Source of the DNA: an uncultured bacterium
GTDB taxonomy: Bacteria; Patescibacteriota; Patescibacteriia; Magasanikbacterales; GWA2-37-8
Length of the DNA: 64,000 nucleotides
Direction of reading: 5' to 3'
Assembly: GCA_937903605.1 (NCBI GenBank)
Contig: CALCZC010000025.1
Span: 281,372 to 345,371, forward strand
Shown here piece after piece: positions 25,330 to 31,121 of the stretch (position 1 is its first letter; each line of letters starts with the position of its first letter). The notes beneath the pieces are model-generated. The model had not been told where the DNA came from, ran no database searches, and saw nothing but the letters and a program-made list of their open reading frames with translations. Both the position numbers and the translations under genes were made by a program.

Positions 25330-25353
25330 CCCGTCCCGCTTAGCGGGACGGGT
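25330..25353. terminator. bidirectional hairpin terminator (CCCGTCCCGC-ttag-GCGGGACGGG) between convergent helicase and dnaJ
   Basis: 10-bp GC stem with an A-run on one side and a T-run on the other. It is a member of the GCTTAGC-loop hairpin family. Confidence 0.7.
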
Positions 25354-25358
25354 CTTTT

Positions 25359-26459
25359 TTATAAATCGTTTTTCAAATCTTCCAATTTCTTTTTTAAATC
25401 TCTACTAATATTTTTAGGAACTTTAATTTTAACCTTCACATAATGATCGCCTCTGCCTTTTTGACGTAAGTATGGAATACCTTTGCCTTTGAGACGAATC
25501 AACTGTCCAGATTCAACACCTTCAGGAATCATTATTTTTTCCATACCATCTAGAGTTTCTATTTCCACCTTATCTCCTAATACGGCTTGTGGATAACTAA
25601 TTTCACAATCGGTAAATATTTCATATCCTTCGCGAGAAAAATATTTATTTTTCTTGATATGAATACGAACATAAAGATCTCCGCTCATGCCATTGTAAGC
25701 AGCGGCCTCACCATATCCACTCAAACGGATAGATTCACCGTCATTTATACCAGCGGGAATTTTTACTTGAAAAGTATTATTTTTAGTGATTACTCCGTCA
25801 CCACCGCAATGTTTACATTTAGTGTTTGGTTTTTGGCCGGCTCCTTTACAATCAGGACAAGTAGCAACTTGCTGAATCGTACCAAAAATAGTGCGCTGGT
25901 TATGAACAACTTGACCGCGACCTCCACAAGTACCACATTTTTCCATTTTACTTCCCGGCTCAGCTCCATTACCTTGGCAAATATCACAAGTGGTTTTTTT
26001 ACGTAAATTTAATTCTCTTTCCACGCCAAAAGCAGCTTCTTTAAAGTCCAATTCTACATCTACTTCTATATCACGTCCACGCGACTTACCTCCTCGTCCA
26101 CGTGAACCTCCGCTAAATCCAAAAAGGTCACCGAAAATATCTCCAAAATCATTTCCGCCAAAATTAAAATTAAAATCACCACCGCCTTGACCACGAGCTG
26201 CGCGCATAAAATCTTCCCAGCCGGCTCCACCGCCAAATCCACCCTGTTGTTCAAAATCAGCGCCAAACTGATCATATTGTTTACGTTTTTGTTCATTACC
26301 AAGCACCTGGTATGCTTCATTCACTTCTTTAAATTTAACTTCATCACCACCCTGTTTGTCAGGATGATATTGATGTGCCATTTTTTGAAATGCTTTGCGA
26401 ATTTCATCTTTGCTGGCATTTTTATCTACACCGAGTATTTTATAATAATCTTTTGACAT
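25359..26459 (-). CDS. dnaJ: molecular chaperone DnaJ
   Basis: J-domain with HPD (YHPDK), G/F-rich linker and four CxxCxGxG zinc-finger repeats. Confidence 0.95.
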   Translation of the reverse strand: MSKDYYKILGVDKNASKDEIRKAFQKMAHQYHPDKQGGDEVKFKEVNEAYQVLGNEQKRKQYDQFGADFEQQGGFGGGAGWEDFMRAARGQGGGDFNFNFGGNDFGDIFGDLFGFSGGSRGRGGKSRGRDIEVDVELDFKEAAFGVERELNLRKKTTCDICQGNGAEPGSKMEKCGTCGGRGQVVHNQRTIFGTIQQVATCPDCKGAGQKPNTKCKHCGGDGVITKNNTFQVKIPAGINDGESIRLSGYGEAAAYNGMSGDLYVRIHIKKNKYFSREGYEIFTDCEISYPQAVLGDKVEIETLDGMEKIMIPEGVESGQLIRLKGKGIPYLRQKGRGDHYVKVKIKVPKNISRDLKKKLEDLKNDL

Positions 26460-26542
26460 AGAAGTATATAGTATACCGTATATCGTATGTCGTATTACAA
26501 TATTTTAAAATACTATATACGATATACTAAATACGAAATACA

Positions 26543-28444
26543 TTATTTCACCACTTCCCCTTCTATCGGCCCCTGTTCATTATCATCTTTTTTATCTTCG
26601 GTTTTATTTTCTGCTCCAGGTTGTTGGGCCTGTTGGTTTTGTTGATACATTTTTGCACCAACAGCTTGAGCGTCTTTACTCAATGCATCAGCCGCTTTTT
26701 TGATTGCCTCTATATCATCTTTATCTTTTACATCTTTTAATGCCTTTACACCTTCTTCCACTTTTTTCTTTTCGTCGTCAGTGATAGCAACTTTCTTTTC
26801 GTCGATTTCTTTCATCATTTTTTCTGTCGTATAAATCATTGTATCGGCTAAATTACGAGCTTCGATAAGTTCTTGTTTTTTCTTATCTTCATCGGCATGA
26901 GCTTCGGCTTCTTTTTTCATTTTTTCTATTTCATCTTTATTTAAACCAGAAGATGATTCAATGCGTACAGATTGTTCTTTGCCTGTGCCCTTATCCTTGG
27001 CTTTGACATTAAGAATTCCGTTGGCATCAATATCAAAATGTACTTCAATTTGCGGTACACCACGCGGAGCCATAGGGATTCCATCCAACATAAACCTACC
27101 CAATGTTTTATTATCAGGAGCCATCGGACGTTCACCTTGTAAAATATGAATTTCTACGCTTGGTTGATTGTCAGCGGCTGTTGAAAATACTTGAGATTTA
27201 GAAGTTGGGATAGTGGTGTTGCGCTCAATAAGTTTAGTCATTACTCCGCCCATGGTTTCAATCCCTAGAGATAGCGGGGTAACATCAAGCAACAAAACAT
27301 CTTTGACATCACCTTGGAGCACTCCACCTTGTACCGCCGCTCCGGCAGCTACTACTTCATCGGGGTTTACGGTAATATTTGGTTTTTTGCCAAAGAATTT
27401 TTCTACGGTAGAAATAACCAGTGGCATGCGAGTCATACCACCAACCATAACCACTTCATGTAAATCACCGGTAGATAGTTTGGCATCTTCCAATGCTTTT
27501 TTAACCGGAATCAAAGTTTTTTGCACCAATTCCCCAACCAATTCTTCCAATTTAGCGCGGGTCAATTTCATCACCAAATGTTTCGGACCAGTTGAGTCAG
27601 AAGTAATAAAAGGTTGGTTGATTTCACTTTCTTGCGCGGTTGATAATTCAATTTTTGCTTTTTCTGCCGCTTCTTTAATTCGTTGAAGCGCTAAAGTGTC
27701 TTTACTCAAATCAATACCTTGATCTTTTTTAAATTCATCCAAAATCCAATTGATAACCACTTGATCAAAATCGTCCCCTCCAAGATGAGTGTCGCCGTTA
27801 GTAGATAATACTTGTACAGTATCGGCGGAAACATCCAAAATAGAAATATCAAAAGTACCACCACCTAAATCATAGACTGCAATTTTTTGATCTTTCTTTT
27901 TATCAAAACCATAAGCCAAAGCGGCGGCCGTTGGTTCATTGATAATACGCAAAACTTTCAAACCGGCAATTTCACCCGCATCTTTGGTAGCTTGACGTTG
28001 AGAATCATCAAAATAAGCCGGCACAGTGATAACCGCTTCAGTAATTTTTTCTCCCACTCTTTCTTCCGCGTCGGCTTTCATTTTCTGTAATATCATGGCG
28101 GAAATTTCTTGCGGTGAATATTCTTTATCACTCATTTTAACCTTTACCCCTTCACCTGATTTCACAATTTTATAAGGCATTAAACTAACATCACGTTGAA
28201 CTTCAGAATCATCAAAACGACGACCGATAAGACGCTTGATAGAATAAAGTGTATTTTCCGGATTGGTCACGGCTTGGCGTTTGGCCAATTGTCCGACTAA
28301 TCTTTCACCGGTTTTGGAAATCGCTACGATAGAAGGAGTTGTGCGATTACCCTCTTTATTTTCTAAAACTTTCGGTTGACCACCTTCGATAATAGCCATA
28401 CAGCTATTAGTGGTACCAAGATCTATTCCTAATACTTTTCCCAT
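26543..28444 (-). CDS. dnaK: molecular chaperone DnaK (Hsp70)
   Basis: [21 protein letters not shown]…DLGGGTFD…, 633 aa. Confidence 0.95.
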
Positions 28445-28480
28445 ATGTGTATTAAATTAAGTTATTAATTAGGTTATTAA

Positions 28481-29404
28481 TTATTTTATTGTTAAATTAT
28501 ATTCATTGGCCGGTTCATCAGTATATTGTTTAATATATTTATCTGTGTCGGCCGTATTTTCAATGGGTCCTTCAAATACATAAGCTCTCTTAAAAGTTTT
28601 TACTTTGATATGATTATTATCAATCCAACTAATAAGCCCGGAAGTAACCCAACAACCCTCTCCGCAAGAAACTAGTGTTTCATTTTTTGGTATATCCAAC
28701 ACTTTTGTTTCTACCTTATTCTTCCAATTATAAACATATATCGATTCCAAATCTTTATCATCAAATTTCACAAAATATATATTTTCTTTATTTGGCGAAT
28801 AAGGAGGGTCAAACAAAATAGAAGGGGAATTTAAAATTGGAAATGAGTTGTCGTATTGTATTTTAGCCACATCCTTCTCTTTGTCTAACTCAATATAATA
28901 TTTTAGAGAGAAACCAATAACTTCATTGCTGCCTCGCAAAAAAATAAACAGTTTATTGTTTTCCTCATAACGAAACCATTCTTCAACGCCACTAAGCTTG
29001 TTATATTCCACCCTATCATCTTTAATATAATTTACGAGATTTTCATTAAATATTTTTTTATTTCCGTGCCATAAATAATTATCGAAGACAGAATATCTAT
29101 TATTAGCCACAATATCGTCAAATATTCGCTTTCGTTCTTTGTCGTATGCTTCTTGTCTTGTTTTATCATTTTCTTCTAATTCAAGCTTCCAGTTACTTTT
29201 ATAGACACTCAATTCCGCTGATAAATCATCAATATTTTTCTGATAATCTACTAATTTTAATTTAATCGTATTCAATTCATTGTTGGCTTTTGAATAATTA
29301 TCAAATAATTTGTTGTATTTATTTATCTGCCAAATCAAAACTCCGCTAATTGCAACTAGTACAACCAATAAAACTCCCCCTGCTATTTTTATTTTATTTT
29401 TCAT
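28481..29404 (-). CDS. membrane-anchored coiled-coil/beta-rich protein of unknown function (307 aa) inserted between grpE-fusion and dnaK
   Basis: N-terminal TM helix (IAGGVLLVVLVAISGVLIW), predicted coiled coil, then a beta-rich domain. No motif recognised. Confidence 0.5.
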   Translation of the reverse strand: MKNKIKIAGGVLLVVLVAISGVLIWQINKYNKLFDNYSKANNELNTIKLKLVDYQKNIDDLSAELSVYKSNWKLELEENDKTRQEAYDKERKRIFDDIVANNRYSVFDNYLWHGNKKIFNENLVNYIKDDRVEYNKLSGVEEWFRYEENNKLFIFLRGSNEVIGFSLKYYIELDKEKDVAKIQYDNSFPILNSPSILFDPPYSPNKENIYFVKFDDKDLESIYVYNWKNKVETKVLDIPKNETLVSCGEGCWVTSGLISWIDNNHIKVKTFKRAYVFEGPIENTADTDKYIKQYTDEPANEYNLTIK

Positions 29405-29407
29405 AAA

Positions 29408-30334
29408 TTATTTATTAATTATTACTTTAGCTGCTTTGATTACTTTATCTCCAACTTTATATCCTCCATCTATTTCTTTCAAAATTATATGGGATTCTAC
29501 ACCATCTTGCATTTCTTCTCCCATAGCTTCATGAAACTTCGGATTAAATTTCTCACCAACAGTTTTAATTTCCTCCACTCCATGCGCTTTTAGCACGCTT
29601 TCAAACTGTTTCATAATAAACCCGATGCCATCTATCCAGTTTTTGAAAGTTTTATGCTCTTCGTTATCGGGATTTACTTCCAGGCGGTGGTAAAAAGCTT
29701 TTTTAAAATTTTCATAAACCGGAATAAATTCTTCCAAAATTTGCGTTTCGCTCATTTGTGCCCATTCTCCACGGCGGGTATTGATTTCGTTTTGAAGATT
29801 TTTATAATCCGCAAGAGCCCTTTGCCAGCCGGCTTTGTATTCATCTGACTCTATTTTGTGTTTCTCACAATCCTTGCAAGCTTTGCTGAATAATCCTTTT
29901 TTAATTTTTAAAAAATGTTTTTTTACAGTTTCCAAACAACTCTCTTCCACATCGTCGCGTTTTACTATTTCCTCGGGCGCGAGCCAAATATACTCTTGGC
30001 CTTCCCGGCCATCCACTTTTACTTCATCTTCGTTTAAGGTCCGGGCTTTGTAGTCCAAACCAATAAAGTGTCTCATGGACCCGGAAAAATTTGGCGGATC
30101 CACAAATTCCACATGTCCCAAAAATTCTATTTGATCTATATCCAAATTGGTTTCTTCTTTCACTTCCCGTTTAAGCGCATCTTCCATTTTTTCCATATAG
30201 TCTATTTTTCCACCCGGTACTACCAGTTTATCGCTCCATTTTTTGGAACGCATCAAAAATATTTTTCCGTCGTTATTGTAAATAAACGCGCCGACAGAAA
30301 CCACGGGTCTAGTTGTATTGTTTTGATCCGCCAT
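29408..30334 (-). CDS. grpE: NUDIX hydrolase domain fused to GrpE nucleotide-exchange factor (308 aa)
   Basis: Residues ~10-130 form a Nudix fold with box GGKIDYMEKMEDALKREVKEETNL. Residues ~150-308 form GrpE (YKAGWQRALADYKNLQNE coiled coil, FNPKFHEAMGEE, GYKVGDKVIKAAKVII). A single continuous ORF sits in the hrcA-grpE-dnaK-dnaJ position. Confidence 0.8.
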   Translation of the reverse strand: MADQNNTTRPVVSVGAFIYNNDGKIFLMRSKKWSDKLVVPGGKIDYMEKMEDALKREVKEETNLDIDQIEFLGHVEFVDPPNFSGSMRHFIGLDYKARTLNEDEVKVDGREGQEYIWLAPEEIVKRDDVEESCLETVKKHFLKIKKGLFSKACKDCEKHKIESDEYKAGWQRALADYKNLQNEINTRRGEWAQMSETQILEEFIPVYENFKKAFYHRLEVNPDNEEHKTFKNWIDGIGFIMKQFESVLKAHGVEEIKTVGEKFNPKFHEAMGEEMQDGVESHIILKEIDGGYKVGDKVIKAAKVIINK

Positions 30335-30335
30335 A

Positions 30336-31058
30336 TTATAAACTATTTAATATTTCACTGATTTTTTGCATCAAAGCGTAATTTCTTTTGTAATCCATTC
30401 TATTCAAACCCACCATCAACAACATATCGGATTTGTCTTTACGGACACGCGTGGCCAAAACACTCAAATCTTCACCAAACGGCTGTTCCTCGCCTAGGAA
30501 AAATCTCGGATCATCTATAATCATATTCTCAAATTCATCCAGATAATCTTCACAATGATCAAATATTCCGGAGATGTTTACCACTAATTCCGGTTCCATA
30601 AATTCTTTCTTACCAAATAAATTTGAAAGTCCCGTATAATAAACTTTATCCGGACCAAAGGCGTAAATTATAGCTTCTCCGCTGATTTGCGCCAAACCTT
30701 TGGCTAGAGTGCGAACTCCGCTTTCAAAATCTTGTTTTTCTCCCATCAAGATTTCTTCCACTTTCTTTTCATCTTTACCGCTTATTTTTACACCACCTAA
30801 ATTCATGGAATTAATATAATGACGGTAACCGGCTGCAGTCGGAACTCTGCCGGCGCTGGTGTGCGGATGAGTCAAATAACCTACTTCTTCCAAAGCGCGC
30901 AGATCGTTGCGTACCGTGGCTTCGCTCCAATCAAGACCTTCTTGTTTAACTAAAAACTTAGAACCAACGGGCTGCGCTGTTTCTATGTGAGTTTCAACCA
31001 CCAATTTAAAAAGCTTCTCTTGGCGTTCATTTAGATTTTTTTTCTTATTGGAAGCCAT
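30336..31058 (-). CDS. hrcA: heat-inducible transcription repressor HrcA (short, 240 aa)
   Basis: N-terminal winged-HTH LNERQEKLFKLVVETHIETAQPVGSKFL…VRNDLRALEEVGYLTHPHTSAGRVPT. A CIRCE operator lies directly upstream. Confidence 0.8.
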   Translation of the reverse strand: MASNKKKNLNERQEKLFKLVVETHIETAQPVGSKFLVKQEGLDWSEATVRNDLRALEEVGYLTHPHTSAGRVPTAAGYRHYINSMNLGGVKISGKDEKKVEEILMGEKQDFESGVRTLAKGLAQISGEAIIYAFGPDKVYYTGLSNLFGKKEFMEPELVVNISGIFDHCEDYLDEFENMIIDDPRFFLGEEQPFGEDLSVLATRVRKDKSDMLLMVGLNRMDYKRNYALMQKISEILNSL

Positions 31059-31067
31059 AGTTAAAAA

Positions 31068-31094
31068 TTATCACTCTCTCTTCTTGAGTGATAA
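31068..31094 (-). promoter_or_regulatory. CIRCE-like HrcA operator (TTATCACTC-N9-GAGTGATAA)
   Basis: Perfect 9-bp inverted repeat with a 9-nt spacer. It differs from canonical TTAGCACTC-N9-GAGTGCTAA at one position per arm. It sits between the promoter -10 and the hrcA ATG. Confidence 0.75.
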
Positions 31095-31121
31095 TATAAC
31101 ACAAGTAAAAAAGGTCGTCAA
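31093..31121 (-). promoter_or_regulatory. promoter of the hrcA operon (TTGACG-N17-TATATT)
   Basis: Read on the minus strand. The -10 overlaps the CIRCE right arm by 2 nt. Confidence 0.55.

What the first reader, a model, noticed from the sequence alone, without database searches (positions are those of the whole stretch)
29408..30334. NUDIX hydrolase fused to GrpE inside the heat-shock operon
The gene in the canonical grpE position (between hrcA and dnaK) encodes one continuous 308-aa protein. Its first ~130 residues form a Nudix fold with a recognisable Nudix box (GGKIDYMEKMEDALKREVKEETNL). Its last ~160 residues form GrpE (coiled-coil YKAGWQRALADYKNLQNE…, FNPKFHEAMGEE, GYKVGDKVIKAAKVII). 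GrpE normally has only an unstructured N-tail. A nucleotide-diphosphate-X hydrolase fused to the DnaK nucleotide-exchange factor could couple nucleotide or alarmone turnover to chaperone cycling. I am not aware of this fusion being characterised.
Basis: partly seen in the sequence, partly recalled or inferred. Interest (0 to 1): 0.6.

Follow-up and report, generated by a model that had tools for sequence, protein, structure and literature searches.

The report
Swappable Nudix enzyme fused onto GrpE
The heat-shock co-chaperone GrpE of this tiny-genome bacterium (Magasanikbacteria, Patescibacteria/CPR) really carries an intact, apparently active Nudix hydrolase in place of its usual floppy N-terminal tail. 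The fusion is common in that lineage and I found no paper on it, but the Nudix part behaves as an optional, exchangeable add-on rather than a built-in part of the chaperone cycle.

Summary
Window 29408..30334 (- strand) is one uninterrupted 308-aa ORF. Residues 11-128 match Pfam NUDIX (E 2e-20) and residues 155-308 match GrpE (E 3e-31). It lies in a CIRCE/HrcA-type operon: hrcA, nudix::grpE, an unknown 307-aa gene, dnaK, dnaJ.

It is not an artefact. The identical protein occurs on 11 contigs from several separate assemblies. The same continuous ORF occurs in 54 of 80 related species genomes and in about 110 of the 120 best protein clusters, down to about 40% identity.

The Nudix catalytic residues are invariant or nearly so, and dN/dS is about 0.1. 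AlphaFold2 gives two confident domains joined by a disordered linker.

New here: the Nudix module is an optional, mosaic cassette.
- The closest relatives (HrcA 87-90%, DnaK 94-97% identical) have an ordinary acidic tail instead. The replaced segment has clean boundaries at codons 2-147.
- Fused and unfused forms interleave on the GrpE tree (about 46 switches among 229 proteins).
- The Nudix and GrpE halves have discordant histories.
- Both forms keep a KKxFF-CxxC segment just before the coiled coil.
- Free-standing relatives of the Nudix are not linked to chaperone genes (1 of about 46 loci).

Best reading: a modular two-function protein, co-regulated by heat shock. Mechanistic coupling to the DnaK cycle is unsupported but not excluded. 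I rate it a new variant of a known kind.

The parts
31093..31121 (-). Sigma-70-like promoter, TTGACG-17-TATATT with a TG-extended -10, upstream of hrcA
   Evidence: (10 of 12 matches, TG before the -10 hexamer) and the sequence read. This is a consensus match only; function is inferred.
31068..31094 (.). CIRCE-like inverted repeat TTATCACTC-N9-GAGTGATAA. It overlaps the -10 hexamer and lies 10 nt before the hrcA ATG.
   Evidence: the only match in 64 kb to TTAGCACTC-N9-GAGTGCTAA at up to 3 mismatches (it has 2). No match occurred in 100 shuffles.
30336..31058 (-). hrcA, short form (240 aa). Its stop codon is 1 nt before the grpE ATG.
   Evidence: Pfam HrcA scores 29.6 bits against a cut-off of 22.2. 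TIGR00331 scores 141.9 bits, below its cut-off of 197.2.
29408..30334 (-). Nudix-GrpE fusion gene (308 aa plus stop codon)
29915..30304 (-). Nudix hydrolase domain (residues 11-140)
   Evidence: Pfam. AlphaFold2 pLDDT about 95. Foldseek TM about 0.8 to small Nudix enzymes.
30143..30211 (-). Nudix box, G42...L64 (GKIDYMEKMEDALKREVKEETNL)
   Evidence: G42, E48, R56 and E60 are invariant and E57 and E61 are 51/52 among fused orthologues.
29894..30331 (-). Variable N-terminal cassette (codons 2-147). In unfused sister genomes this segment is replaced by an acidic tail of about 35 aa.
   Evidence: DNA comparison with L015 and L036. Analogous breaks occur in fused pairs.
29864..29914 (-). Linker and pre-helix segment (residues 141-157): FLKIKKGLFSKACKDCE. 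It holds the KK-x-LF-x-K motif and C153-x-x-C156.
   Evidence: pLDDT is below 50 at residues 145-152. The segment is shared by fused and unfused relatives.
29411..29872 (-). GrpE core (residues 155-308): long helix, four-helix-bundle helix, beta domain
   Evidence: Pfam, model, Foldseek to 9bls_C and 9a81_A.
28481..29404 (-). Unknown 307-aa protein inside the operon, in the slot where relatives carry hsp20. The N-terminus is hydrophobic.
   Evidence: no Pfam family above cut-off. No homologue in any of 80 related loci.
26543..28444 (-). dnaK
   Evidence: HSP70, E 1e-258.
25359..26459 (-). dnaJ
25330..25352 (-). Intrinsic-terminator-like hairpin (10 bp, 9 of them GC, then a T run) just after dnaJ. 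It closes the operon.

Best explanation
This is a real, modular two-function protein. [quoted passage not shown] The gene sits in the grpE slot of a heat-shock operon (promoter plus CIRCE operator, hrcA, nudix::grpE, unknown gene, dnaK, dnaJ, terminator).

The usual acidic, disordered N-terminal leader of GrpE has been replaced by a compact Nudix pyrophosphohydrolase that is probably catalytically active. It belongs to a widespread clade of small (about 139-aa) MutT/NudI-like enzymes. Its substrate is unknown; most likely it is a (d)NTP or another NDP-X 'house-cleaning' substrate.

A flexible linker tethers the Nudix upstream of a retained pre-helix segment (KK-x-[LF]F-x-K-x-CxxC). The [LF]F pair flanked by lysines may play the role that the 17-IIM-19 tail motif plays in E. 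coli GrpE, namely transient binding in the DnaK substrate groove.

I infer that the two modules act largely independently. The fusion would give the enzyme HrcA-controlled, stress-induced expression equimolar with GrpE, and would present two copies on a dimeric scaffold. It would leave nucleotide exchange untouched, because the GrpE N-terminus tolerates additions.

In evolution the Nudix behaves as an accessory cassette. It is swapped in, out and between lineages, presumably by homologous recombination using hrcA and the grpE core as flanking homology.

Shown: ORF continuity, domain identity, conservation, operon layout, the cassette boundaries, and the lability and mosaicism of the module.
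Inferred: enzymatic activity, heat-shock regulation, independence of the two functions, and the recombination mechanism.
For: Domain identity and fold.

Reality of the fusion.

Purifying selection on the enzyme:
- G42, E48, R56, E60 and H89 are 52/52; E57, E61, E111 and W117 are 51/52.
- dN/dS for window versus L001 is 0.106 in the Nudix half and 0.125 in the GrpE half.

Only grpE at the locus: no second GrpE or Nudix gene in the window. No assembly appears twice among the 80 loci.

Operon signals.

Flexible tether: pLDDT below 50 at residues 145-152 and pTM 0.47.

Optional module:
- 27 of 81 loci are unfused. They include the nearest relatives L015, L016, L018 and L036 (HrcA 87-90%, DnaK 94-97%).
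- 444 unfused protein clusters are 58-90% identical (best 120) to the GrpE half.
- There are 46 parsimony switches on a balanced tree of 229 tips. Shuffled labels give a mean of 77 and a minimum of 63.
- Clean boundaries at codons 2-147.

Mosaic module:
- L002 versus L008: HrcA 94%, Nudix 42%, GrpE 92%, DnaK 97%.
- L042 versus L037: 83%, 41%, 94%, 94%.
- L029 versus L034: Nudix 88% but GrpE 64%.
- 22 of 52 loci have strongly discordant nearest neighbours.

Shared pre-helix segment in both forms.

Clade of free-standing relatives, at most 54% identical, with no close split-off copy seen.

No chaperone genes near free-standing relatives: 1 of about 46 loci of 5 kb or more.

The same Nudix clade is also fused to HAD, FolB, PTPS, MazG, RpiB, DUF357 and Smr. 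That marks it as a promiscuous module.

Role and position of the GrpE N-terminus: PMC12915176 and PMC10803776.
Against: - No split version (separate nudix and grpE genes) was seen in any of 80 loci. If co-expression were the only benefit, operon membership would suffice. Persistence of the covalent link in hundreds of lineages hints at some advantage of tethering.
- One unrelated genome (L086) has two free-standing Nudix genes of this clade between dnaK and dnaJ. A functional link to the Hsp70 system may therefore exist.
- The Nudix sits immediately next to the tail motif thought to enter the DnaK substrate groove, so steric or regulatory cross-talk is plausible.
- Substrate and activity are untested.
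- The NJ trees are crude, so the number of switches is an overestimate of unknown size. The direction (gain versus loss) is unresolved: the root comes out fused in the biased sample and unfused in the balanced one.
Confidence: 0.55

Rival explanations
1. Functional coupling. The tethered Nudix binds or hydrolyses a nucleotide relevant to the Hsp70 cycle or to stress signalling, such as ADP, Ap4A-type dinucleotides or ADP-ribose. It thereby modulates GrpE action, for example by controlling access of the adjacent tail motif to the DnaK substrate-binding domain, or by biasing exchange when ADP is high.
For: - The covalent fusion is maintained, never split, in 54 of 54 fused loci.
- The Nudix is placed within about 10 residues of the conserved KKxFF pre-helix motif.
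- L086 has Nudix genes of the same clade embedded between dnaK and dnaJ.
- A variant with two tandem Nudix domains before GrpE exists (P0182).
Against: - The module is dispensable. Sister genomes with 94-97% identical DnaK lack it.
- At the DnaK columns most associated with fusion state, the window itself carries the 'unfused-type' residue, so those associations are phylogenetic and show no co-adaptation.
- Nudix halves only about 40% identical sit on GrpE and DnaK that are 92-97% identical.
- The attachment point is at the opposite end of GrpE from the beta domain that opens the nucleotide pocket.
- Local depletion of a freely diffusing nucleotide by a tethered enzyme is physically implausible (inference).
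- Free-standing relatives show no chaperone neighbourhood in about 45 loci.
Confidence: 0.2
2. Degenerate or non-catalytic Nudix. The domain serves only as a folded cap, a dimerisation aid or a ligand sensor at the tip of the GrpE coiled coil, for instance tuning its thermosensor behaviour.
For: - The window's box has N instead of the canonical penultimate G.
- No curated Nudix equivalog model is reached.
- The position at the end of the thermosensing helix pair is suggestive (inference).
Against: - All metal-binding and catalytic box residues (E48, R56, E57, E60, E61), plus H89 and E111, are conserved in 51-52 of 52 orthologues despite a mean of only about 38% identity in the domain.
- The G-to-N substitution is shared by 11 of 52 orthologues and is at a non-catalytic position.
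- dN/dS is about 0.1.
Confidence: 0.08
3. Chaperone-targeted editing or conflict module. GrpE delivers the Nudix to DnaK or its clients. There it removes nucleotide-derived protein modifications (for example trimming ADP-ribose) or destroys a signalling nucleotide used in phage-host or host-symbiont conflict. The rapid turnover of the cassette would then reflect an arms race.
For: - Presence/absence polymorphism and cassette-like replacement with sharp boundaries.
- In some pairs Nudix pN is up to 9-fold that of the GrpE half.
- A weak hit to the PADLOC candidate defence Nudix PDC-S07 (E 4.9e-12).
- grpE, dnaK and dnaJ are classic phage host factors (established knowledge).
Against: - The PADLOC hit is no better than generic Nudix similarity. 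Pfam NUDIX scores 73 bits against 44 bits for PDC-S07.
- No defence genes were recognised in the operon.
- In several pairs the Nudix is more conserved than the GrpE half (L012/L024: 95% versus 84%).
- No known modification of DnaK is implicated in these organisms.
Confidence: 0.07
4. Assembly, sequencing or gene-calling artefact that joins two separate genes.
For: None found. Two odd longer relatives (P0057, Nudix-GrpE-S1, 403 aa) could themselves be read-through calls.
Against: - The identical ORF is present in 11 contigs from separate assemblies.
- The continuous ORF is present in 54 species genomes and about 110 protein clusters, down to about 40% identity.
- Both halves are under purifying selection.
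Confidence: 0.01

Closest known systems
Canonical bacterial GrpE (E. coli GrpE; M. tuberculosis GrpE in the DnaK-GrpE cryo-EM complex; human GrpEL1, PDB 9bls)
   Same: It has a long N-terminal helix, a four-helix-bundle helix and a C-terminal beta domain. It matches Pfam GrpE over 19-165 of 165 profile positions. It occupies the position after hrcA and before dnaK-dnaJ under a CIRCE-like operator.
   Different: The disordered N-terminal tail of about 30-45 residues is replaced by a folded 130-residue enzyme domain. Only a short pre-helix segment remains, carrying a hydrophobic pair flanked by lysines plus a CxxC. Scores fall below every NCBIfam GrpE equivalog cut-off (81 bits against 137).
Unfused GrpE of sister Magasanikbacteria (for example P0042; loci L015, L016, L018, L036)
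   Same: The GrpE core is 77-90% identical. The pre-helix segment KK[GS][LF]FxKxCK[DN]CE is the same. The hrcA, dnaK and dnaJ neighbours are the same.
   Different: They carry an acidic low-complexity leader of about 35 residues (MTDEQKN...EEK...) where the window has the Nudix domain. There is no Nudix ORF anywhere in those loci.
Free-standing small Nudix clade of about 139 aa (JGI label 'nucleoside triphosphatase'; best curated model NudI, below cut-off)
   Same: The family motifs are shared: P-x-VGA-x-I-x-N, LMRS-x-KW, PGGH-x-E-x-GE, REVKEETNLD, an invariant His about 25 residues after the box, and L-x-x-E-x-x-EY-x-W. The minimal Nudix fold is the same.
   Different: These are at most 54% identical. 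They are stand-alone genes with no chaperone genes nearby in about 45 of 46 loci. No member is biochemically characterised as far as these tools show.
Other fusions of the same Nudix clade (HAD-Nudix, HAD-Nudix-FolB, PTPS-Nudix, Nudix-MazG, RpiB-Nudix, DUF357-Nudix, Smr-HAD-Nudix)
   Same: The same small Nudix module (38-46% identical) is attached through a short linker to another protein.
   Different: Nearly all of those partners are metabolic or nucleotide-handling enzymes, so the fusions can be read as consecutive or related reactions. GrpE is a non-enzymatic co-chaperone, so no pathway logic is evident.

Membership tests
GrpE nucleotide-exchange factor (Pfam PF01025) | Profile match above the curated threshold, covering the helix, bundle and beta domain | tested here: met
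   108.6 bits against a cut-off of 25.8; residues 155-308 cover profile positions 19-165 of 165.
GrpE nucleotide-exchange factor (Pfam PF01025) | Fold: long paired helix, four-helix-bundle helix, small C-terminal beta domain | tested here: met
   AlphaFold2 secondary structure H156-213, H225-250, strands 253-307. Foldseek to 9bls_C (GrpEL1, TM 0.81 on the target) and 9a81_A.
GrpE nucleotide-exchange factor (Pfam PF01025) | Genomic position with hrcA, dnaK and dnaJ, as the only grpE at the locus | tested here: met
   No assembly contributes two loci among the 80. Whole genomes could not be scanned.
GrpE nucleotide-exchange factor (Pfam PF01025) | NCBIfam equivalog-level score | tested here: not met
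   The best model, NF010738, scores 81 bits against a cut-off of 137. This reflects divergence of Patescibacteria sequences and concerns naming confidence, not the fold.
GrpE nucleotide-exchange factor (Pfam PF01025) | Homodimer that accelerates ADP release from DnaK | not testable with these tools
   This needs biochemistry or a multimer model.
Nudix hydrolase superfamily (Pfam PF00293) | Profile match above the curated threshold | tested here: met
   73.4 bits against a cut-off of 21.1; residues 11-128.
Nudix hydrolase superfamily (Pfam PF00293) | Nudix box GX5EX7REUXEEXGU with the catalytic Glu and Arg residues | tested here: met
   G42-x5-E48-x7-R56 E57 V x E60 E61 x N63 L64. Only the penultimate G is replaced, by N. 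G42, E48, R56 and E60 are 52/52 and E57 and E61 are 51/52 among fused orthologues.
Nudix hydrolase superfamily (Pfam PF00293) | Alpha/beta/alpha sandwich Nudix fold | tested here: met
   pLDDT about 95. Foldseek E 1e-10 and TM 0.73-0.83 on the target to 4kyx, 2i8t, 3grn, 3oga, 1vc8 and 4dyw.
Nudix hydrolase superfamily (Pfam PF00293) | Metal-dependent hydrolysis of a nucleoside diphosphate linked to X | not testable with these tools
   An enzyme assay is required.
Specific characterised Nudix subfamilies (MutT, NudI, GDP-mannose mannosyl hydrolase, NudB, RppH, NudC, ADP-ribose pyrophosphatase) | Equivalog-level profile score | tested here: not met
   The window protein scores 41.5 bits for GDPMH (cut-off 146) and 35.5 bits for MutT (cut-off 97.9). 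Free-standing relatives score 59.5 bits for NudI (cut-off 95). The nearest PDB sequences are only 21-26% identical.
HrcA/CIRCE heat-shock regulon | CIRCE inverted repeat TTAGCACTC-N9-GAGTGCTAA at the promoter | tested here: met
   TTATCACTC-N9-GAGTGATAA at 31068..31094 has 2 symmetric mismatches. No match occurred in 100 shuffles. It overlaps the -10 of TTGACG-17-TATATT.
HrcA/CIRCE heat-shock regulon | HrcA repressor encoded in the operon | tested here: inconclusive
   Pfam HrcA C-terminal domain scores 29.6 bits against a cut-off of 22.2. TIGR00331 scores 141.9 bits against 197.2, and the protein is 240 aa rather than about 340. The short form is conserved in 78 related loci.
PADLOC candidate defence gene PDC-S07 (single Nudix) | Specific profile match and a defence-island context | tested here: inconclusive
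   E 4.9e-12 and 43.7 bits, weaker than the generic Pfam NUDIX match. The library gives no cut-off, and no defence genes were recognised nearby.

The most novel reading that the evidence does not exclude
The N-terminus of GrpE in Magasanikbacteria is a recombining 'payload slot', and GrpE acts as a delivery vehicle. It would bring an interchangeable Nudix enzyme to the substrate-binding domain of DnaK. There the enzyme would edit nucleotide-derived modifications or destroy a signalling nucleotide on or near DnaK and its clients. The rapid presence/absence and allele turnover of the cassette would reflect conflict with phages or with the host cell of these symbiotic bacteria.
Probability: 0.08. 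Interest if true: 0.8.

Novelty: new variant of a known kind. Interest (0 to 1): 0.45.

Why it matters
GrpE is regarded as a simple, single-purpose co-chaperone. Its disordered N-terminal tail has only recently been shown to enter the DnaK substrate groove (PMC12915176). Here a whole bacterial lineage naturally carries either an acidic tail or a folded enzyme at that position, on otherwise near-identical GrpE and DnaK backgrounds.

That gives a ready-made natural experiment on two questions: what the GrpE N-terminus tolerates, and what it contributes. It also raises a concrete question about why a nucleotide-cleaning enzyme is tied to the heat-shock machinery in genome-reduced Patescibacteria.

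There is a practical point too. Hundreds of database entries labelled only 'nucleotide exchange factor GrpE' contain an unannotated hydrolase domain.

If the enzyme turns out to act on DnaK or its clients, or to gate substrate release, it would be a new layer of Hsp70 regulation. If not, it is a clear example of modular domain shuffling at a permissive terminus.

Tried and rejected
1. Artefact hypothesis. Rejected by independent assemblies and orthologues.

2. Split-gene ancestor or derivative. I looked for a separate Nudix ORF in the 27 unfused loci and found none. In the 5.8-billion-protein set I looked for a close (60% or more) free-standing copy and found nothing above 54%.

3. Co-adaptation of DnaK to the fused state. 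Column-by-column association gave 'significant' columns (p down to 2e-6). But the unfused genomes all fall in one major clade, and at the six columns I checked the window itself has the 'unfused' residue. The signal is phylogenetic, so I dropped it as evidence.

4. dN/dS to separate relaxed selection from recombination. Synonymous sites are near saturation (pS 0.5-0.8), so the ratios are unreliable for most pairs. I relied instead on discordant nearest neighbours and sharp identity breaks.

5. Root state (gain versus loss). The first sample was biased towards fused proteins because the full-length query favours them. The protein search tool seems to favour hits of similar length to the query. 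A balanced tree gives an unfused root but remains unreliable. Direction is left open.

6. Guilt by association for free-standing relatives. 80 metagenome loci plus 3 look-ups yielded only L086 with Hsp70-system genes.

7. Internal translation start that could yield a separate GrpE. The linker has no ATG. The GTG at codon 129 and the TTG at codon 134 lack an SD-like motif, but so do all true starts in this operon, so the test is uninformative.

8. Naming the free-standing relatives through cluster members. No names were on record.

9. An AlphaFold-database fold search, to find UniProt entries with the same architecture. The library was unavailable.

10. Substrate assignment from PDB or NCBIfam neighbours. 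The best hits carry mixed annotations (ADP-ribose pyrophosphatase, GDP-mannose hydrolase, MutT, NudI, NUDT15, Ap4A/Ap6A hydrolases) at 16-26% identity. No assignment was made.

11. Rfam and tRNA scans of the window found only two tRNAs, with nothing near the operon.
Full report
**1. The observation**

Window 29408..30334 on the minus strand is a single 308-aa ORF with an ATG start and no internal stop.

- Pfam places a NUDIX domain at residues 11-128 (E 2.3e-20) and a GrpE domain at residues 155-308 (E 3.4e-31). Both are far above the curated thresholds.
- The Nudix box is G42-x5-E48-x7-R56-E57-V-x-E60-E61-x-N63-L64. It is canonical except for N in place of the penultimate G.
- An AlphaFold2 model built on 29 homologues has mean pLDDT 84. 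The Nudix domain is at about 95. Residues 145-152 are disordered (below 50). The classical GrpE elements follow: a long helix 156-213, a helix 225-250 and a beta domain 253-307.
- Foldseek against the PDB returns minimal Nudix enzymes (4kyx, 2i8t, 3grn, 3oga, 1vc8, 4dyw; TM 0.73-0.83 on the target). It also returns GrpE chains (9bls_C, human GrpEL1, TM 0.81; 9a81_A).

One detail needs amending: a 307-aa gene of unknown function (28481..29404) lies between this gene and dnaK.

**2. Not an artefact**

- The identical 308-aa protein is encoded on 11 contigs from separate assemblies (ENA ERZ724087 on a 348-kb contig, Logan SRR31979759, SRR31979760 and others), with the same neighbours.
- A search of 5.8 billion protein clusters gave 539 relatives. 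About 110 of the best 120 carry both Pfam domains, at 44-82% identity. Where sources give a name, it is usually just 'nucleotide exchange factor GrpE' from Magasanikbacteria, Parcubacteria or Patescibacteria.
- A scan of one genome per species found 408 loci. Of the best 80, 54 have the same continuous Nudix-GrpE ORF directly after hrcA.
- Among 52 fused orthologues, G42, E48, R56, E60 and H89 are invariant. E57, E61, E111 and W117 are 51 of 52.
- For the closest pair (window and L001), dN/dS is 0.106 in the Nudix half and 0.125 in the GrpE half.

Both halves are maintained by selection, and the catalytic machinery of the Nudix half is intact.

**3. Context**

The transcription unit reads as follows.

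- A sigma-70-like promoter, TTGACG-17-TATATT, at 31121..31093.
- A CIRCE-like inverted repeat, TTATCACTC-N9-GAGTGATAA, at 31068..31094. It overlaps the -10 hexamer. It is the only such site in 64 kb, and none appeared in 100 shuffles.
- A short hrcA of 240 aa. The grpE ATG lies one nucleotide after its stop codon.
- The 307-aa unknown gene, then dnaK, then dnaJ.
- A strong hairpin terminator at 25352..25330.

The window contains no second GrpE or Nudix gene.

In related genomes the order hrcA, (nudix-)grpE, variable insert, dnaK, dnaJ is constant. The gene after grpE is an Hsp20 in 52 of 73 loci. The window's 307-aa gene has no homologue in any of them.

**4. The Nudix module is optional and mosaic**

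This goes beyond the original finding.

*Presence and absence.* 27 of the 81 loci have a GrpE with an ordinary acidic leader of about 35 residues and no Nudix ORF anywhere nearby. They include the genomes closest to the window by flanking genes: L015, L016, L018 and L036, with HrcA 87-90% and DnaK 94-97% identical.

*Clean boundaries.* DNA identity between the window and L015 or L036 runs at 80-97% through hrcA up to the grpE start codon. It collapses over window ~29900-30334 (codons 2-147). It resumes at about 85% at the motif LFSKACKDCE.

*Many unfused relatives.* A search with the GrpE half alone returned 444 unfused clusters; the best 120 are 58-90% identical. The search tool appears to favour hits of similar length to the query, which explains why the full-length query had returned mostly fused proteins.

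*Frequent switching.* On a neighbour-joining tree of GrpE halves from a balanced sample (112 fused, 117 unfused), the state changes about 46 times by parsimony. Shuffled labels give a mean of 77 and a minimum of 63. The window's nearest neighbours alternate between unfused and fused. The trees are crude, so the count is inflated. The interleaving at very short distances is robust all the same. The direction (gain versus loss) is unresolved.

*Discordant halves.*

| Pair | HrcA | Nudix | GrpE | DnaK |
|---|---|---|---|---|
| L002 / L008 | 94% | 42% | 92% | 97% |
| L042 / L037 | 83% | 41% | 94% | 94% |
| L029 / L034 | – | 88% | 64% | – |

- The identity breaks coincide sharply with the Nudix-coding segment.
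- 22 of 52 fused loci have strongly discordant nearest neighbours for the two halves.
- Each fused Nudix is nevertheless closest to another GrpE-fused Nudix in 51 of 52 cases. This fits one origin followed by exchange among lineages.

The simplest mechanism is homologous recombination that uses hrcA and the grpE core as flanking homology. That is an inference.

**5. What the Nudix is**

An exhaustive profile search with residues 1-140 found 3163 relatives at E ≤ 1e-3.

- Among the best 150 cluster representatives, 23 are GrpE-fused and 82 are free-standing proteins of 175 aa or fewer, most about 140 aa.
- The rest are fused to other partners. Ten that I scanned showed HAD hydrolase, HAD plus FolB, PTPS, MazG, RpiB, DUF357 or Smr.
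- The free-standing clade is coherent (66% mean column identity). It shares the family motifs: LMRS-x-KW, PGGH-x-E-x-GE, REVKEETNLD, an invariant His, and E-x-x-EY-x-W.
- Its members are at most 54% identical to the window domain.
- No curated Nudix subfamily model is reached. The best is NudI at 59.5 bits against a cut-off of 95 for the free-standing proteins.
- PDB neighbours carry mixed annotations at 16-26% identity.

The substrate therefore cannot be assigned. A small-molecule (d)NTP or NDP-X 'house-cleaning' activity is the default expectation.

Gene neighbourhoods of free-standing relatives give no general link to chaperones. Of about 46 loci of 5 kb or more, only L086 has Hsp70-system genes. 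There, two Nudix genes of this clade, a HAD and an HD hydrolase lie between dnaK and dnaJ.

**6. How it probably works**

Both fused and unfused GrpE share the segment KK-[GS]-[LF]-F-x-K-x-C-K-[DN]-C-E immediately before the coiled coil. The variable module, whether Nudix or acidic leader, is attached N-terminal to that segment.

Two papers set the structural frame.

- In E. coli the disordered tail of GrpE binds transiently in the DnaK substrate groove through a hydrophobic motif, 17-IIM-19 (PMC12915176).
[quoted passage not shown] Deleting the tail blocks substrate release. The beta domain at the other end opens the nucleotide pocket (PMC10803776).

By analogy, the [LF]F pair flanked by lysines is a candidate pseudo-substrate motif retained in both forms. 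The Nudix domain would dangle beside the DnaK substrate-binding domain, far from the nucleotide cleft. Both points are inferences.

Taking the flexible linker, the dispensability and the mosaic history together, the best-supported model is a modular two-function protein:

- an unaltered GrpE exchange factor;
- plus an independently acting Nudix hydrolase;
- which gains HrcA/CIRCE-controlled, GrpE-equimolar, dimer-displayed expression.

I put this at about 0.55.

The fusion is never found split. The Nudix abuts the tail motif. L086 shows an independent Nudix-Hsp70 neighbourhood. But comparative evidence for co-adaptation is absent.

A non-catalytic cap (about 0.08) is disfavoured by the invariant catalytic residues. 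A chaperone-targeted editing or conflict role (about 0.07) would explain the cassette turnover. It rests only on that turnover and a generic PADLOC Nudix hit.

**7. Comparison with the known, and novelty**

Both domains are members of well-known families, and the membership tests are met at superfamily level. The architecture is present in public databases under the plain name GrpE.

I found no description of it in 8 million full texts. That search does not cover most subscription-journal papers. Recent mechanistic papers on the GrpE tail treat the N-terminus as a disordered peptide.

I therefore class it as a new variant of a known kind: GrpE with an enzymatic N-terminal module that is, in addition, a presence/absence and allele-exchange polymorphism across a lineage.

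Interest is moderate (0.45). It is a genuine, widespread and unstudied architecture, and it offers a natural experiment on the GrpE N-terminus. There is no present evidence that it changes how the chaperone cycle works.

Noticed in passing
window 28481..29404 (- strand): A 307-aa protein with a hydrophobic N-terminus and no Pfam family above cut-off sits inside the heat-shock operon, where 52 of 73 related genomes carry hsp20. It has no homologue in any of 80 related loci. Its GC content is low (0.29 against 0.36 for the window), which suggests a recent strain-specific insertion.
   Followed up: partly
window 29867..29878 (residues C153-K-D-C156), and relatives: A CxxC motif lies immediately before the GrpE coiled coil. 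It is present in 98 of 114 unfused and 79 of 110 fused relatives. In a GrpE dimer this would place four cysteines together at the tip of the helix pair, so a Zn site or a redox switch is possible. I know of no description of this for GrpE.
   Followed up: partly
window 30336..31058 (- strand): HrcA is a short form of 240 aa, against the 338-position TIGR00331 model. It scores below the TIGR00331 cut-off, yet it is conserved at about 230-240 aa in 78 related loci. The cognate operator is a variant CIRCE, TTATCACTC-N9-GAGTGATAA.
   Followed up: partly
L086 1506..8738 (NCBI GCA_975968385.1, CDLUCE010000009.1): An unrelated genome has dnaK, Nudix (140 aa), HAD, HD, Nudix (138 aa, 45% identical to the window domain), a 558-aa protein and dnaJ in one cluster. 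Pfam domain calls on the called genes show no GrpE in the 10-kb locus. This is an independent neighbourhood link between this Nudix clade and the Hsp70 system. I saw it only once.
   Followed up: partly
L002, L025, L031, L032, L060, L061, L073 and others, between grpE and dnaK: The grpE-dnaK interval is a variable insertion hotspot of 0-4 kb (median about 1 kb). Besides hsp20, it recurrently holds queF, a Vut_1/YhhQ-type queuosine-precursor transporter and NYN-domain genes.
   Followed up: partly
P0182 (449 aa) and P0057 (403 aa): Architectural variants exist. P0182 has two tandem Nudix domains followed by GrpE. P0057 has Nudix, GrpE and a C-terminal S1 RNA-binding domain; the latter could be a read-through gene call.
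   Followed up: no
P0154, P0178, P0177, P0146, P0183, P0125, P0211: The same small Nudix clade is fused to HAD hydrolases, HAD plus FolB, PTPS/QueD-like, MazG, RpiB, DUF357 and Smr. The FolB and PTPS partners hint that some members act on dihydroneopterin triphosphate.
   Followed up: no
L001-L080 record titles: Many loci whose operon proteins (HrcA, GrpE, DnaK, DnaJ) clearly resemble those of Magasanikbacteria come from MAG records titled 'uncultured Gammaproteobacteria bacterium'. These are apparently placeholder or erroneous organism names.
   Followed up: no
window 25359..31058, gene starts: None of the five operon genes has a Shine-Dalgarno-like motif in the 25 nt before its start codon. 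The hrcA stop and the grpE start are separated by a single nucleotide, which suggests translational coupling.
   Followed up: no
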